From sequence record ON528743: DNA of 64,000 bases. The stretch is one strand, 5' to 3'. Position 1 is the stretch's first letter; every line of letters begins with the position of its first letter. The notes under the pieces were generated by a model. It did no database searches. It saw only the letters and a list, made by a program, of their open reading frames with translations, and was not told the origin of the DNA. Both the position numbers and the translations under genes were made by a program. This document shows, piece after piece, positions 39,236 to 40,250 of the stretch. The stretch is from Shigella phage ESh33.

Positions 39236-39308
39236 TGGGAATTAGCCAAGTTGGTAAGGCACTGGATTTTGATTCCAGGATGCAAAGGTTCGAGTCCTTT
39301 ATTCCCAG
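39236..39308 (+). tRNA. tRNA-Gln (anticodon UUG), no encoded CCA
   Basis: Cloverleaf by hand: acceptor TGGGAAT/ATTCCCA, anticodon loop TTTTGAT, T-arm GGTTCGAGTCC. Confidence 0.8.
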
Positions 39309-39309
39309 C

Positions 39310-39396
39310 GCGAGAATGGTCAAATTGGTAAAGGCACAGCACTTAAAATGCTGCGGAATGATTTCCTTGTGGGTTCGAGTCCCACTTCTCGCACCA
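39310..39396 (+). tRNA. tRNA-Leu (anticodon UAA), long variable arm, CCA encoded
   Basis: Acceptor GCGAGAA/TTCTCGC, anticodon loop CTTAAAA, T-arm GGGTTCGAGTCCC. Confidence 0.8.
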
Positions 39397-39401
39397 AATT
39401 T

Positions 39402-39475
39402 GCGGATATCGTATAATGGTATTACCTCAGACTTCCAATCTGATGATGTGAGTTCGATTCTCATTATCCGCTCCA
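39402..39475 (+). tRNA. tRNA-Gly (anticodon UCC)
   Basis: Acceptor GCGGATA/TATCCGC, anticodon loop CTTCCAA, T-arm GTTCGATTC. Confidence 0.8.
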
Positions 39476-39485
39476 ATTTAATTTA

Positions 39486-39559
39486 CTCCGTGTAGCTCAG
39501 TTTGGTAGAGCGCCTGATTTGGGATCAGGAGGTCCAAGGTTCAAATCCTTGTATGGAGA
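39486..39559 (+). tRNA. tRNA-Pro (anticodon UGG), no encoded CCA
   Basis: Acceptor CTCCGTG/TATGGAG with G-U pairs, anticodon loop TTTGGGA, T-arm GGTTCAAATCC. Confidence 0.75.
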
Positions 39560-39561
39560 CT

Positions 39562-39651
39562 GGAGGCGTGGCAGAGTGGTTTAATGCACCGGTCTTGAAA
39601 ACCGGCAGTCGCTCCGGCGACTCATAGGTTCAAATCCTATCGCCTCCGCCA
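39562..39651 (+). tRNA. tRNA-Ser (anticodon UGA), long variable arm
   Basis: Acceptor GGAGGCG/CGCCTCC, anticodon loop CTTGAAA, T-arm GGTTCAAATCC, CCA encoded. Confidence 0.8.
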
Positions 39652-39656
39652 GTTTT

Positions 39657-39732
39657 GCTGATTTAGCTCAATAGGTAGAGCAACTCACTTGTAATGAGAA
39701 GGTCGGCGGTTCGATTCCGTCAATCAGCACCA
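39657..39732 (+). tRNA. tRNA-Thr (anticodon UGU)
   Basis: Acceptor GCTGATT/AATCAGC, anticodon loop CTTGTAA, T-arm GGTTCGATTCC, CCA encoded. Confidence 0.75.
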
Positions 39733-39733
39733 A

Positions 39734-39808
39734 GGCCCTGTAGCTGGAAGGTTCAAGCAAGCGACTCATAATCGCCAGATGGTGGTTCAATTCCACCCAG
39801 GGCCACCA
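39734..39808 (+). tRNA. tRNA with anticodon CAU (Ile2 if lysidine-modified, otherwise Met)
   Basis: Acceptor GGCCCTG/CAGGGCC, anticodon loop CTCATAA, T-arm GGTTCAATTCC, CCA encoded. Confidence 0.7.
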
Positions 39809-39814
39809 AATTAA

Positions 39815-39901
39815 GGGGAGTTATCCCGTAGAGGTAGCGGTGTGGACTGTAAATCCATTGTCATTGCGACTCGGGTGGTTCGACTCCATCACTCCCCACC
39901 A
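39815..39901 (+). tRNA. tRNA-Tyr (anticodon GUA), long variable arm
   Basis: Acceptor GGGGAGT/ACTCCCC, anticodon loop CTGTAAA, T-arm GGTTCGACTCC, CCA encoded; not among the eight T4 tRNAs as I recall them. Confidence 0.7.
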
Positions 39902-39905
39902 ATTT

Positions 39906-39980
39906 GGATGTGTAGCTCAATGGCAGAGCGATCGCCTGTTAAGCGATTGGTTATAGGTTCGAATCCTATCACGTCCGCCA
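39906..39980 (+). tRNA. tRNA-Asn (anticodon GUU)
   Basis: Acceptor GGATGTG/CACGTCC, anticodon loop CTGTTAA, T-arm GGTTCGAATCC, CCA encoded. Confidence 0.7.
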
Positions 39981-40094
39981 AATTTGTGACAACTGTCACA
40001 TTAATATCTACTTGACGCGATTATAGGGGTTGAACTGATCACTCTTCTCTTAATTTCGTGTGAAGACATCATGATTGTTGGAGTAGATATTAAT
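39981..40094 (+). ncRNA. 114-nt structured spacer inside the tRNA array; candidate small stable RNA or processing element
   Basis: No ORF; long-range inverted repeat CATTAATATCTAC (39998-40010) / GTAGATATTAATG (40083-40095) and local palindrome GTGACAACTGTCAC. Confidence 0.3.
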
Positions 40095-40170
40095 GTGGCC
40101 GTAGTTCAGTTGGTAGAACTCGAGATTGTGATTCTCGTAGTCATGGGTTCGACTCCCATCGGTCACCCCA
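40095..40170 (+). tRNA. tRNA-His (anticodon GUG); position -1 is T, so no encoded G-1
   Basis: Acceptor GTGGCCG/CGGTCAC, anticodon loop TTGTGAT, T-arm GGGTTCGACTCCC, CCA encoded. Confidence 0.7.
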
Positions 40171-40174
40171 ATTA

Positions 40175-40250
40175 CGGGGCATAGCTCAGAAGGAAGAGCA
40201 AGGACCTTCTAAGTCCTAGGTCGTAGGTTCGATCCCTACTGCCTCGACCA
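40175..40250 (+). tRNA. tRNA-Arg (anticodon UCU)
   Basis: Acceptor CGGGGCA/TGCCTCG, anticodon loop CTTCTAA, T-arm GGTTCGATCCC, CCA encoded. Confidence 0.75.

What the first reader, a model, noticed from the sequence alone, without database searches (positions are those of the whole stretch)
39236..40250. Expanded tRNA array: eleven tRNAs, with Tyr, Asn and His added to the T4-type set
Hand-folding gives eleven cloverleafs in the order Gln(UUG), Leu(UAA), Gly(UCC), Pro(UGG), Ser(UGA), Thr(UGU), Ile/Met(CAU), Tyr(GUA), Asn(GUU), His(GUG), Arg(UCU). As far as I recall T4 has eight of these; Tyr, Asn and His are inserted between the Ile and Arg genes. The Gln and Pro genes lack an encoded CCA. 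The His gene has T at position -1, so the G-1 that bacterial HisRS normally needs is not encoded, which raises the question of whether this tRNA is charged.
Basis: partly seen in the sequence, partly recalled or inferred. Interest (0 to 1): 0.45.

Follow-up and report, generated by a model that had tools for sequence, protein, structure and literature searches.

The report
Known eleven-tRNA cluster of T4-like phage
The eleven tRNA genes are real, but this exact cluster is already annotated in well over a hundred sequenced T4-like phages; the less ordinary details are a histidine tRNA that lacks the usual extra 5' G and an unannotated, conserved structured RNA directly in front of it.

Summary
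Observation confirmed. ARAGORN and Rfam both find the same eleven tRNAs at 39236-40250 with the stated anticodons. Only Gln and Pro lack an encoded CCA. The His gene has T at -1, where E. coli hisR has G.

The window is a Tequatrovirus. The Tyr-Asn-spacer-His block is in 186 GenBank phage records, where the tRNAs are annotated, and papers report "11 tRNA" Tequatroviruses. So the array is already known.

The "insertion into the T4 set" reading is only partly right. T4 carries the homing endonuclease gene segB at this position, and the window's CAU and Arg tRNAs are different alleles from T4's (about 63% identity). The window therefore holds the segB-free, T2-type cassette described in 2008, plus a His module shared with Karamvirus and Jiaodavirus phages.

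The CAU tRNA is Ile2-like, not Met. Codon demand fits Tyr and Asn but not His.

The G-1-less, C73 tRNA-His recurs in phages, including T5, and is under purifying selection.

The 114-nt "spacer" before His holds a covarying, hairpin-closed RNA of about 95 nt. It is in 355 phage records, has no Rfam match, and resembles T5 stable RNA III in architecture.

Interest is low for the array and modest for the His and leader-RNA details.

The parts
39236..39309 (+). tRNA-Gln(UUG). Only C74 of the CCA is encoded; it abuts tRNA-Leu as a dimeric precursor, as in T4.
   Evidence: It is 87.8% identical to T4 Gln, and by eye the anticodon stem is replaced by a compensating one.
39310..39396 (+). tRNA-Leu(UAA), CCA encoded.
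   Evidence: It is 100% identical to T4 Leu.
39402..39475 (+). tRNA-Gly(UCC), CCA encoded.
   Evidence: It is 100% identical to T4 Gly.
39486..39560 (+). tRNA-Pro(UGG). It has C1-G72 and A73, followed by CU; the CCA is not fully encoded.
   Evidence: It is 98.7% identical to T4 Pro.
39562..39651 (+). tRNA-Ser(UGA), class II. CCA is encoded here, whereas T4 has UAA at that position.
39657..39732 (+). tRNA-Thr(UGU), CCA encoded.
   Evidence: It is 94.7% identical to T4 Thr.
39734..39808 (+). tRNA with anticodon CAU, of Ile2 (lysidine) type. It is the T2-type allele with CCA encoded.
   Evidence: The best E. coli match (81.6%, full length, in 5424 of 5426 genomes) is annotated tRNA-Ile. The anticodon stem-loop AGCGACTCATAATCGCC is identical, and C4-G69 and C5-G68 are kept.
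39815..39901 (+). tRNA-Tyr(GUA), class II.
   Evidence: 30.2 bits, borderline. Window 39809-39905, which contains the gene, is 96.9% identical to T6. T6 tRNA-Tyr is detected by northern blot and counteracts Septu (PMC13096335).
39906..39980 (+). tRNA-Asn(GUU). It corresponds to the T2L tRNA-Asn gene, in which the preferred SegB cleavage site was mapped.
   Evidence: 74.1 bits. The gene body is identical to T2 in the alignment. The SegB site is from PMC2330249.
39987..39999 (+). Mini hairpin GUGAC-AACU-GUCAC. Its 3' arm, GUCAC at 39995-39999, is complementary to tRNA-His nucleotides 1-5.
   Evidence: Read from the sequence and the fold. It is conserved in the PG7, STP4-a, L009 and L133 versions.
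40000..40094 (+). Conserved structured RNA element that forms the leader of tRNA-His. A 14-bp terminal stem closes a multi-branched interior, and the last pair of the stem is A40000:U40094, which is position -1 of tRNA-His.
   Evidence: Folding z-score is -3.77. The element is in 355 phage records. Nine pairs show compensatory change, and 0 of 500 shuffles reach the observed values. The covariance model scores 84-115 bits on the + strand and under 18 bits on the - strand. There is no Rfam match.
40095..40170 (+). tRNA-His(GUG). It has no encoded G-1 (T at 40094), G1-C72, G4.U69, C73 and an encoded CCA.
40175..40250 (+). tRNA-Arg(UCU), the T2-type allele with C1-G72.
   Evidence: It is 63.2% identical to T4 Arg.
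40269..40619 (+). ORF of 116 aa of unknown function (phrog_3355). It is present after tRNA-Arg in T2 and absent from T4.
40616..40736 (+). Homologue of T4 rnaD (species 2 stable RNA). The start coordinate is approximate.
   Evidence: Alignment with the T4 annotation.
40743..40881 (+). Homologue of T4 rnaC (species 1 stable RNA).
   Evidence: Alignment with the T4 annotation.
40931..40954 (+). Intrinsic-terminator-like hairpin followed by a T run. It probably marks the end of the tRNA and stable-RNA transcription unit.

Best explanation
This is the segB-free, T2-type tRNA gene region of a Tequatrovirus (T4-like coliphage).

Content. It holds eleven bacterial-type tRNA genes, followed by ORF116 and by homologues of the T4 stable RNAs rnaD and rnaC.

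Expression (inferred by analogy with T4). The genes are transcribed together in one direction and matured by host enzymes. RNase P makes the 5' ends. Exonucleases and the CCA-adding enzyme finish Gln and Pro.

Roles. The eight T4-type tRNAs decode A-ending codons that the phage uses 1.6-5 times more often than E. coli does. The CAU tRNA is a lysidine-type tRNA-Ile2 for AUA. Tyr and Asn serve amino acids the phage uses about 1.5 times more often, and they probably also act as spare parts against host tRNA-cleaving defences. That defence role is shown for the T6 tRNA-Tyr homologue and only inferred for Asn.

The His module. tRNA-His arrives as a module with an upstream hairpin-closed RNA of about 95 nt. 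It lacks an encoded G-1 but keeps C73, CCA and the host anticodon loop. The most likely course is that RNase P cuts at +1 (U at -1 is its preferred leader base) and that host HisRS charges the product with His at reduced efficiency. The same cut would release the leader as a blunt-ended, exonuclease-resistant small RNA.

Shown versus inferred. Shown here: gene content, conservation, covariation and the allele relationships. Inferred: the processing sites, charging, and the stability of the leader RNA.
For: - Gene calls.
- Identity of the window: 971 phage records match, and the best is 98.2% identical to Tequatrovirus teqdroes-type phages in which all eleven tRNAs are annotated.
- Mosaic series: T4 has eight tRNAs plus segB. 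T6 has Tyr plus a 666-nt CDS in the segB position, which the SegB study PMC13096335 treats as segB. T2 has CAU-Tyr-Asn-Arg-ORF116. Phage 236Ecol005PP has the leader element without His.
- Alleles: window versus T4 identities are. The window's CAU tRNA gene is identical to T2's, and its Arg gene is near-identical to T2's.
- Published work: PMC2330249 describes the T2L/RB1/RB3 cassette and SegB homing. PMC7917993 reports 11 tRNA genes in fPS-65, which is among the matches.
- Ile2 type.
- Codon use.
- tRNA-Tyr function: PMC13096335. tRNA-Asn as a PARIS target rescued by the T5 tRNA-Asn: preprint 10.1101/2025.02.04.636281.
- tRNA-His under selection: the anticodon and T stems change by compensation, while the acceptor stem, C73, CCA and A-2 U-1 are invariant in 8 T4-like phages.
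- T5 precedent: T5 tRNA-His also has U at -1 and C73, and it is preceded directly by the annotated stable RNA III.
- Leader RNA structure and covariation.
Against: - Nothing contradicts the gene content.
- Nothing here measures transcription, 5' ends or aminoacylation in this phage.
- E. coli HisRS is known to depend strongly on G-1 and its 5' phosphate (established knowledge; summarised in PMC9508852 and PMC5389517), so efficient charging of this tRNA-His is not assured.
- His codons are used less in the window's ORFs than in E. coli (14.6 against about 22.6 per thousand; the E. coli figures are from memory), so codon supply does not explain why His is kept.
- The Tyr gene only just passes the Rfam threshold, and its D-arm is weak in the MFE fold.
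Confidence: 0.88

Rival explanations
1. The three non-T4 tRNAs (Tyr, Asn, His) are kept mainly as anti-defence spare parts or decoys, not for codon supply. All three have GUN anticodons and belong to the queuosine family. Host tRNA nucleases attack this group: Septu/PtuAB and retron-Eco7 cut tRNA-Tyr, PARIS AriB cuts tRNA-Asn with traces on tRNA-His, and colicin E5-type enzymes cut Tyr, His, Asn and Asp.
For: - PMC13096335: the T6 tRNA-Tyr, 96.9% identical to the window over the Tyr region, rescues T6 from Septu, while T4, which lacks it, cannot escape.
- PMC11555353: phage tRNA-Tyr evades retron-Eco7.
- Preprint 10.1101/2025.02.04.636281: AriB depletes tRNA-Asn(GUU), cleavage products are also seen for tRNA-His(GUG), and the T5 tRNA-Asn contributes to rescue.
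- The window's tRNA-Asn reads U36-A-A-G39, whereas the preprint gives UAAU for E. coli at the AriB site (sequence).
- PMC1635277: colicin E5 cleaves exactly Tyr, His, Asn and Asp.
- His codons are under-used by the phage.
Against: - The anticodon loops of the window's Tyr, Asn and His tRNAs look host-like (His; Tyr and Asn by recall of the E. coli sequences), so there is no sign of evasion of an anticodon-loop nuclease.
- Septu cleaves the T6 tRNA-Tyr as well (PMC13096335), so any protection works by dosage.
- Tyr and Asn codons really are 1.5-2.4 times more frequent than in E. coli, so codon supply alone suffices for those two.
- No defence system is known to act mainly on tRNA-His.
Confidence: 0.4
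2. The tRNA-His gene is not a working His acceptor. Without G-1 it stays uncharged or is mischarged, and it persists as a hitch-hiker, a decoy or a processing scaffold for the leader RNA.
For: - T at -1 cannot pair with C73.
- U at -1 favours canonical RNase P cleavage at +1 (established knowledge).
- E. coli has no Thg1-type enzyme (established knowledge).
- The window's ORFs use His codons at only about 0.65 times the E. coli rate.
- His has been lost while the leader element was kept in 236Ecol005PP and STP4-a.
Against: - Purifying selection is strong, with compensatory stem changes. The acceptor stem, C73, CCA and anticodon loop are invariant across four genera.
- Independent phage arrays (L042, L094/L130, L022, T5) share the U-1 and C73 design.
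- Classic mapping studies list His-accepting tRNAs for T5 (table in PMC4810235).
- The T5 record notes that the CUA-anticodon derivative is an effective amber suppressor, so that tRNA body is aminoacylated in vivo.
Confidence: 0.15
3. The mature phage tRNA-His keeps an extra 5' nucleotide, U-1. The leader hairpin, whose stem runs up to and across the cleavage site, would shift 5' processing by one position. The resulting 5'-phosphate at -1 would partly replace G-1 for HisRS.
For: - A-2 and U-1 are invariant in all T4-like versions.
- The leader stem pairs U-1 with A40000 and can continue into tRNA nucleotides 1-5 through GUCAC at 39995-39999.
- The T5 record annotates tRNA-His as 78 nt starting at U-1, with RNA III ending just before it.
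- The 5' phosphate of N-1 is a major HisRS determinant (established knowledge).
Against: - An annotation is not a mapped 5' end.
- U-1 cannot pair with C73, and that pairing is what shifts RNase P on E. coli pre-tRNA-His (PMC5389517 cites Orellana et al. 1986).
- In L042 and L094 the U-1 simply follows the CCA of the preceding tRNA, with no hairpin.
Confidence: 0.12

Closest known systems
tRNA gene region of phages T2L, RB1 and RB3 (Brok-Volchanskaya et al. 2008, PMC2330249); GenBank T2 record LC348380
   Same: There is no segB. The block CAU(Met/Ile)-Tyr-Asn-Arg is followed by a 116-aa ORF. The CAU and Asn tRNA genes are identical in sequence to the window's and the Arg gene is near-identical. 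The SegB preferred site was mapped in this tRNA-Asn gene in T2L.
   Different: T2 lacks Thr (an ORF sits there) and lacks the leader element and His: in T2, Asn is followed by Arg after 4 nt. The window has all of these, giving 11 tRNAs against 9.
Tequatrovirus phages with 11 annotated tRNAs (for example vB_EcoM_R5505, teqdroes, fPS-65, Sf22, wV7, RB18)
   Same: The eleven genes are the same, in the same order, at 96-99% identity. There are 186 records with the full Tyr-Asn-leader-His block. PMC7917993 reports 11 tRNA genes for fPS-65.
   Different: Nothing of substance differs. In the records examined here, the leader RNA and the rnaC/rnaD homologues are not annotated, and R5505 has ORFs called over rnaC/rnaD instead.
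Phage T4 tRNA cluster (8 tRNAs, segB, rnaD, rnaC)
   Same: Gln-Leu-Gly-Pro-Ser-Thr are shared at 88-100% identity. Gln and Pro lack CCA in the same way. rnaD and rnaC lie downstream.
   Different: T4 has segB where the window has Tyr-Asn-leader-His. The T4 Ile and Arg genes are different alleles (about 63% identity). T4 Ser and Ile lack an encoded CCA, while the window's have it. T4 has no ORF between Arg and rnaD.
Phage T5 RNA III followed by tRNA-His (NC_005859 annotation)
   Same: An RNA of about 100 nt is closed by a 12-14-bp terminal stem and sits directly against the 5' end of a tRNA-His that has U at -1, C73 and CCA. In T5 the RNA is annotated as a stable RNA of unknown function.
   Different: No sequence or profile similarity is detectable: covariance model R1 gives no hit in the T5 region at E up to 10. 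T5 tRNA-His has G4-C69 and an unusual D-arm. The resemblance is one of architecture, not demonstrated homology.
G-1-less tRNA-His of some alpha-proteobacteria and their phages (PMC5389517 and its reference 41)
   Same: No G-1 is encoded.
   Different: Those tRNAs have A73 or U73 and co-evolved HisRS enzymes. The phage tRNA here keeps C73, the partner of G-1, and must use a gamma-proteobacterial HisRS that normally requires G-1.

Membership tests
Bacterial-type tRNA genes (Rfam RF00005) | A cloverleaf that scores at or above the curated gathering threshold, plus an independent ARAGORN call. | tested here: met
   All 11 pass both tools. Tyr is marginal in Rfam (30.2 bits against 29).
tRNA-Ile2 (anticodon CAU, lysidine type, reads AUA) | Anticodon CAU with a body closest to host tRNA-Ile(CAU) rather than to elongator or initiator tRNA-Met. 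| tested here: met
   The best full-length match in 5424 of 5426 E. coli genomes is annotated tRNA-Ile, at 81.6% identity.
tRNA-Ile2 (anticodon CAU, lysidine type, reads AUA) | The acceptor pairs C4-G69 and C5-G68 and the tRNA-Ile2 anticodon stem-loop. These TilS determinants are recalled from Ikeuchi et al. 2005. | tested here: met
   The acceptor stem is GGCCCTG/CAGGGCC. The anticodon arm AGCGACTCATAATCGCC is identical to that of E. coli tRNA-Ile(CAU). There is no C1xA72 mismatch and no run of three G-C pairs as in an initiator.
tRNA-Ile2 (anticodon CAU, lysidine type, reads AUA) | C34 is converted to lysidine and the tRNA is charged with Ile. | not testable with these tools
   This needs RNA mass spectrometry or a charging assay.
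Canonical bacterial tRNA-His | Anticodon GUG and discriminator C73. | tested here: met
Canonical bacterial tRNA-His | A genome-encoded G at -1 that pairs with C73 and is retained by RNase P. | tested here: not met
   There is T at 40094. T at -1 is also found in all 8 T4-like homologues and in T5, while E. coli hisR has G.
segB-free T2-type tRNA cassette of T-even phages | No segB; CAU-Tyr-Asn-Arg alleles followed by the 116-aa ORF. | tested here: met
   PMC2330249.
T5 RNA III-like stable RNA | An RNA of about 100 nt closed by a long terminal stem, directly 5' of tRNA-His. | tested here: met
T5 RNA III-like stable RNA | Sequence or profile homology to T5 RNA III. | tested here: not met
   Model R1 gives no hit in the T5 tRNA region at E up to 10.
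T5 RNA III-like stable RNA | The RNA accumulates as a discrete stable species in infected cells. | not testable with these tools
   This needs a northern blot or small-RNA sequencing.

The most novel reading that the evidence does not exclude
The hairpin-closed RNA of about 95 nt at 40000-40094 always abuts the G-1-less tRNA-His in T4-like phages of four genera, and T5 RNA III is an architectural twin. It may be a functional partner of that tRNA rather than a spacer. It could set the tRNA's 5' end, for instance by retaining U-1 or by masking the acceptor strand through the GUCAC segment. It could also be released by RNase P as a stable regulatory or decoy RNA. Either role would amount to a phage-specific way of using a tRNA-His that lacks the universal G-1 identity element.
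Probability: 0.12. Interest if true: 0.6.

Novelty: already known. Interest (0 to 1): 0.2.

Why it matters
The array itself adds nothing new. It is the common segB-free allele of the T-even tRNA region. Its variability (T4 8 tRNAs, T6 7, T2 9, this lineage 11) is already explained by homing-endonuclease-driven cassette exchange, and its Tyr gene has already been linked to anti-defence.

Two side points could matter if followed up.

1. Coliphages of several families carry a tRNA-His that keeps C73 but lacks G-1, in hosts whose HisRS depends on G-1. This is a natural test of how strict that identity rule is in vivo.
2. A covarying structured RNA that is in no RNA family database lies inside the tRNA arrays of at least 355 sequenced phages. 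It was not annotated in the records listed or examined here.

Tried and rejected
- Promoter and terminator scan of 38600-41600. Promoter-like sites were no more frequent than in shuffles and none fell in the spacer, so the idea that the spacer is an internal promoter was dropped.
- Rfam at permissive E-values over 39150-41100. Nothing matched in the spacer or over rnaC/rnaD, so a known ribozyme or sRNA family is not supported.
- Pseudo-tRNA reading of the spacer. ARAGORN and Rfam make no call there, and by eye it has no T-arm or anticodon-arm layout.
- DNA-level inverted repeat or MITE-like reading of the spacer. It is disfavoured because G.U pairs are used and the covariance model scores 84-115 bits on the + strand against under 18 bits on the - strand. 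The variable interiors in L090, L105 and L133 keep it from being excluded.
- Homology of the spacer to T5 RNA III. Tested with model R1 and not found.
- IMG/VR pattern scan for the spacer core. It gave only 4 contigs, so the GenBank phage collection was used instead.
- Literature searches for G-1-less tRNA-His in coliphages. No paper in the held library addresses it; this is an absence of evidence only.
- A register shift that would make G40095 the G-1. It was rejected because it would leave a 6-bp acceptor stem, displace U8/A9 and the D-stem, and turn the 3' end into C-CCC.
- A phage Thg1-like enzyme. This was not searched for. It seems unlikely, because 236Ecol005PP has the same region without His and differs there by a clean excision of the tRNA alone, but it is not excluded.
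- Two early scripts failed because locus files are bundled, and one regular expression found nothing. No conclusions rest on them.
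Full report
**1. The observation**

ARAGORN finds eleven tRNA genes in the 64-kb window and no others. Rfam's tRNA model reports the same eleven at or above its gathering score. Ten score 59-74 bits. Tyr is marginal at 30.2 bits against a threshold of 29.

I paired the seven 5' nucleotides of each gene with the matching 3' strand. Every gene has a full 7-bp acceptor stem.
- Gln has G73 followed by CGC, and Pro has A73 followed by CUG, so each encodes only C74.
- The other nine encode CCA.
- His has the acceptor stem GUGGCCG/CGGUCAC, then C73 and CCA, with T at 40094 (-1).
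- E. coli hisR has G at -1.

Every factual statement in the finding therefore holds.

**2. What the window is, and how common the array is**

The 1.3-kb region matches 971 phage records. The best matches are Tequatrovirus (T4-like) phages at 98.2% identity, in which all eleven tRNAs are already annotated. The Tyr-Asn-spacer-His segment alone is present in full in 186 records. Published genome descriptions mention Tequatroviruses with 11 tRNA genes, for example fPS-65 (PMC7917993), which is among the matches. The array is therefore already known.

**3. Relation to T4**

T4 has eight tRNAs arranged as Gln Leu Gly Pro Ser Thr Ile, then segB, then Arg, rnaD and rnaC. Identities between the window and T4 are as follows.

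| tRNA | Identity to T4 |
|---|---|
| Leu | 100% |
| Gly | 100% |
| Pro | 98.7% |
| Ser | 96.7% |
| Thr | 94.7% |
| Gln | 87.8% |
| CAU (vs T4 Ile) | 62.7% |
| Arg | 63.2% |

The CAU and Arg genes are thus different alleles. They are the T2 alleles: CAU is identical to T2's and Arg is near-identical.

The related phages form a mosaic series.
- T2 has Gln Leu Gly Pro Ser, an ORF, then CAU Tyr Asn Arg and a 116-aa ORF.
- T6 has Gln Leu Gly Thr CAU Tyr, a 666-nt CDS in the segB position, then Arg. PMC13096335 treats that CDS as segB.
- Phage 236Ecol005PP has ten tRNAs, with the spacer but without His.

Brok-Volchanskaya et al. (PMC2330249) showed three things. T2L, RB1 and RB3 lack segB. SegB cuts preferentially inside the T2L tRNA-Asn gene. 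Homing replaces the T2L CAU-Tyr-Asn-Arg block with the T4 version.

The window carries the alternative, segB-free cassette. Relative to T2, only the leader element plus His behaves as an added module.

Two small differences from T4 are worth recording. The window's Ser and CAU tRNAs have an encoded CCA, where T4 has UAA and UAU.

**4. The CAU tRNA**

ARAGORN and the GenBank records call it Met from the anticodon alone. Several results point to Ile2 instead.
- Its best match in 5424 of 5426 complete E. coli genomes is a full-length 81.6% hit to a gene that RefSeq annotates as tRNA-Ile.
- The anticodon stem-loop AGCGACTCATAATCGCC is identical to that gene's, and the acceptor pairs C4-G69 and C5-G68 are kept.
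- Identity to E. coli elongator and initiator tRNA-Met is 66% and 62%.
- It has none of the initiator hallmarks.

The gene is an Ile2-type tRNA, as in T4. Lysidine itself cannot be tested here.

**5. Codon use**

I took 66 non-overlapping ORFs from the window (17,824 codons, 36% G+C). The E. coli values used for comparison are recalled, not computed.
- The eight codons read by the T4-type tRNAs are 1.6-5 times as frequent as in E. coli.
- Tyr and Asn codons together are about 1.5 times as frequent, and UAU and AAU are 2.2-2.4 times as frequent.
- His codons are less frequent than in E. coli (14.6 against about 22.6 per thousand).

Codon supply is thus a sufficient rationale for ten of the eleven tRNAs, but not for His.

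**6. Anti-defence context**

- The T6 tRNA-Tyr is detected by northern blot in infected cells, rescues T6 from the Septu system when over-expressed, and is amplified in escape mutants. T4, which lacks it, cannot escape (PMC13096335). The window is 96.9% identical to T6 over the Tyr region.
- The PARIS nuclease AriB depletes E. coli tRNA-Asn(GUU) as a secondary target, and cleavage products were also seen for tRNA-His(GUG). The T5 tRNA-Asn contributes to rescue (preprint 10.1101/2025.02.04.636281).
- The window's tRNA-Asn reads U36-A-A-G39 where that preprint gives UAAU for E. coli.
- Colicin E5 cleaves exactly Tyr, His, Asn and Asp (PMC1635277). The three non-T4 tRNAs here are three of those four GUN-anticodon species.

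This supports a spare-part role for Tyr. It makes one plausible, by inference only, for Asn and His.

**7. tRNA-His without G-1**

T at -1 is not an accident of this genome. It is present in the Karamvirus phages PG7 and EnC07 and in the Jiaodavirus pKp20.

In eight T4-like versions the acceptor stem (including G4.U69), C73, CCA, the anticodon loop and A-2 U-1 are invariant. The anticodon and T stems change by compensating substitutions. That pattern is the signature of a tRNA kept under selection.

In a sample of IMG/VR phage contigs, other tRNA arrays also have U-1 with C73 (L042, L094/L130, L022). Others encode G-1 (L063, L044, L035, L073).

T5 tRNA-His also has U at -1 and C73. The T5 record even annotates the gene from U-1, and it notes that the CUA-anticodon derivative is an effective suppressor. 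A review table lists His-accepting T5 tRNAs from classic mapping work (PMC4810235).

My reading is that the phage tRNA-His is cut at +1 and is a functional but sub-optimal HisRS substrate. I give this about 0.6 within the overall explanation. The alternatives are that it is uncharged or a decoy, or that U-1 is retained. They remain open because nothing here measures RNA ends or charging. I found no paper in the held library that addresses this point.

**8. The 114-nt "spacer" (39981-40094)**

It folds far better than shuffled controls (-33.3 kcal/mol, z = -3.77, 0 of 200 shuffles).

Positions 40000-40094 form a 14-bp terminal stem that closes a branched interior. The last pair of the stem is A40000:U40094, which is the -1 nucleotide of tRNA-His.

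The element is present in 355 phage records. These cover Tequatrovirus, Karamvirus, Jiaodavirus, Gelderlandvirus and one Vequintavirinae phage (W70), where it precedes tRNA-Gln.

The covariation evidence is as follows.
- On nine distinct versions, 92.9% of cells are paired.
- Nine pairs show changes on both sides.
- No shuffle out of 500 reaches the observed values.
- Slid controls fall to 34-50% paired.

A covariance model built from these versions scores 84-115 bits on the + strand and under 18 bits on the - strand. It also recovers diverged copies (L090 at 42 bits, L133 at 30 bits) whose interiors are largely unrelated. The constraint is therefore at the RNA level and strongest on the terminal stem. 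Rfam has no match.

The closest thing known is T5 RNA III. That is a 106-nt annotated stable RNA of unknown function that abuts T5 tRNA-His and is closed by a 12-bp stem. The model does not detect it, so the resemblance is architectural.

Inference: RNase P cleavage at the tRNA-His 5' end would leave this RNA with a flush, fully paired 3' end, which should resist 3' exonucleases. This is the same logic by which T4 rnaC/rnaD and the T5 stable RNAs come out of tRNA precursors.

Just upstream, GUCAC (39995-39999) is complementary to tRNA-His nucleotides 1-5 and would extend the stem across the cleavage site. I do not know whether that matters.

**9. Downstream**

- The 116-aa ORF at 40269-40619 belongs to a PHROG of unknown function. 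It is shared with T2 and absent from T4.
- Homologues of T4 rnaD (about 40616-40736) and rnaC (40743-40881) follow.
- A terminator-like hairpin lies at 40931-40954.
- In the closest GenBank relative, two "hypothetical protein" ORFs are annotated over these RNAs.

**10. Verdict**

The finding is correct as an observation and describes a well-known, widely sequenced arrangement. Novelty: already known.

The interpretation needs correcting on direction: this is a cassette alternative to segB, not an expansion of T4.

The residual interest lies in the conserved G-1-less tRNA-His and its unannotated structured leader RNA. Both are recurrent in phages and untested experimentally.

Noticed in passing
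window 40000-40094 (+), with flank 39981-39999: The spacer between tRNA-Asn and tRNA-His holds a conserved, covarying RNA closed by a 14-bp stem. It is in 355 phage records, has no Rfam match, and was not annotated in the records listed or examined here. In architecture it resembles T5 stable RNA III, which also abuts tRNA-His.
   Followed up: yes
window 39987-39999 and 40095-40099: GUCAC at 39995-39999 is complementary to nucleotides 1-5 of tRNA-His (GUGGC), so the leader stem could continue across the RNase P site. The same GUCAC also forms a mini hairpin with GUGAC at 39987-39991. The segment is conserved in the Tequatrovirus, Karamvirus and Gelderlandvirus versions but not in Jiaodavirus.
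   Followed up: partly
window 40616-40881; L001 4100-4395: Homologues of the T4 stable RNAs rnaD and rnaC lie after ORF116. In the closest GenBank relative (R5505), two 'hypothetical protein' ORFs are annotated over them, and these are probably spurious.
   Followed up: partly
window 39648-39651 and 39805-39808, compared with T4 (L002): tRNA-Ser and the CAU tRNA have an encoded CCA here, where T4 has UAA and UAU. By inference, this phage should depend less than T4 on host 3' trimming and CCA addition.
   Followed up: partly
window 39236-39309, compared with T4: tRNA-Gln differs from the T4 gene almost only in the anticodon stem (CUGGA/UCCAG against UAGCA/UGCUA). It looks like a clean five-pair swap that leaves the UUG anticodon unchanged.
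   Followed up: no
window 39906-39980: tRNA-Asn reads U36-A-A-G39. The PARIS AriB preprint gives UAAU for E. coli tRNA-Asn at that recognition site. The T2L form of this gene holds the published preferred SegB cleavage site.
   Followed up: no
L006 (PG7) 1389-1500; L014 (STP4-a) 1021-1195; L136 (T5) rnaI: Karamvirus and Gelderlandvirus tRNA arrays carry a second conserved non-tRNA spacer that starts with AGUGUAACGGU. This resembles the 5' part of T5 stable RNA I, and T5 RNA I ends in GCCGCCA like a tRNA.
   Followed up: no
window 40931-40954 and 41486-41509: There are two nearly identical terminator-like hairpins, AGCCCCAGCCGAAAGGTTGGGGCT and AGCCCTAGCCAAAAGGTTGGGGCT. One follows rnaC and the other follows the 157-aa ORF.
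   Followed up: no
L090, L105 and L133 (IMG/VR T4-like contigs), upstream of tRNA-His: The outer stem of the leader element and the A-2 U-1 junction are kept while the interior is replaced by largely unrelated sequence, as if the stem were a cassette holder.
   Followed up: partly
window 39743-39758: The D-arm of the CAU tRNA (GCUGGAAGGUUCAAGC) is unusual, with G where A14 is expected. The T2 allele has the same sequence.
   Followed up: no
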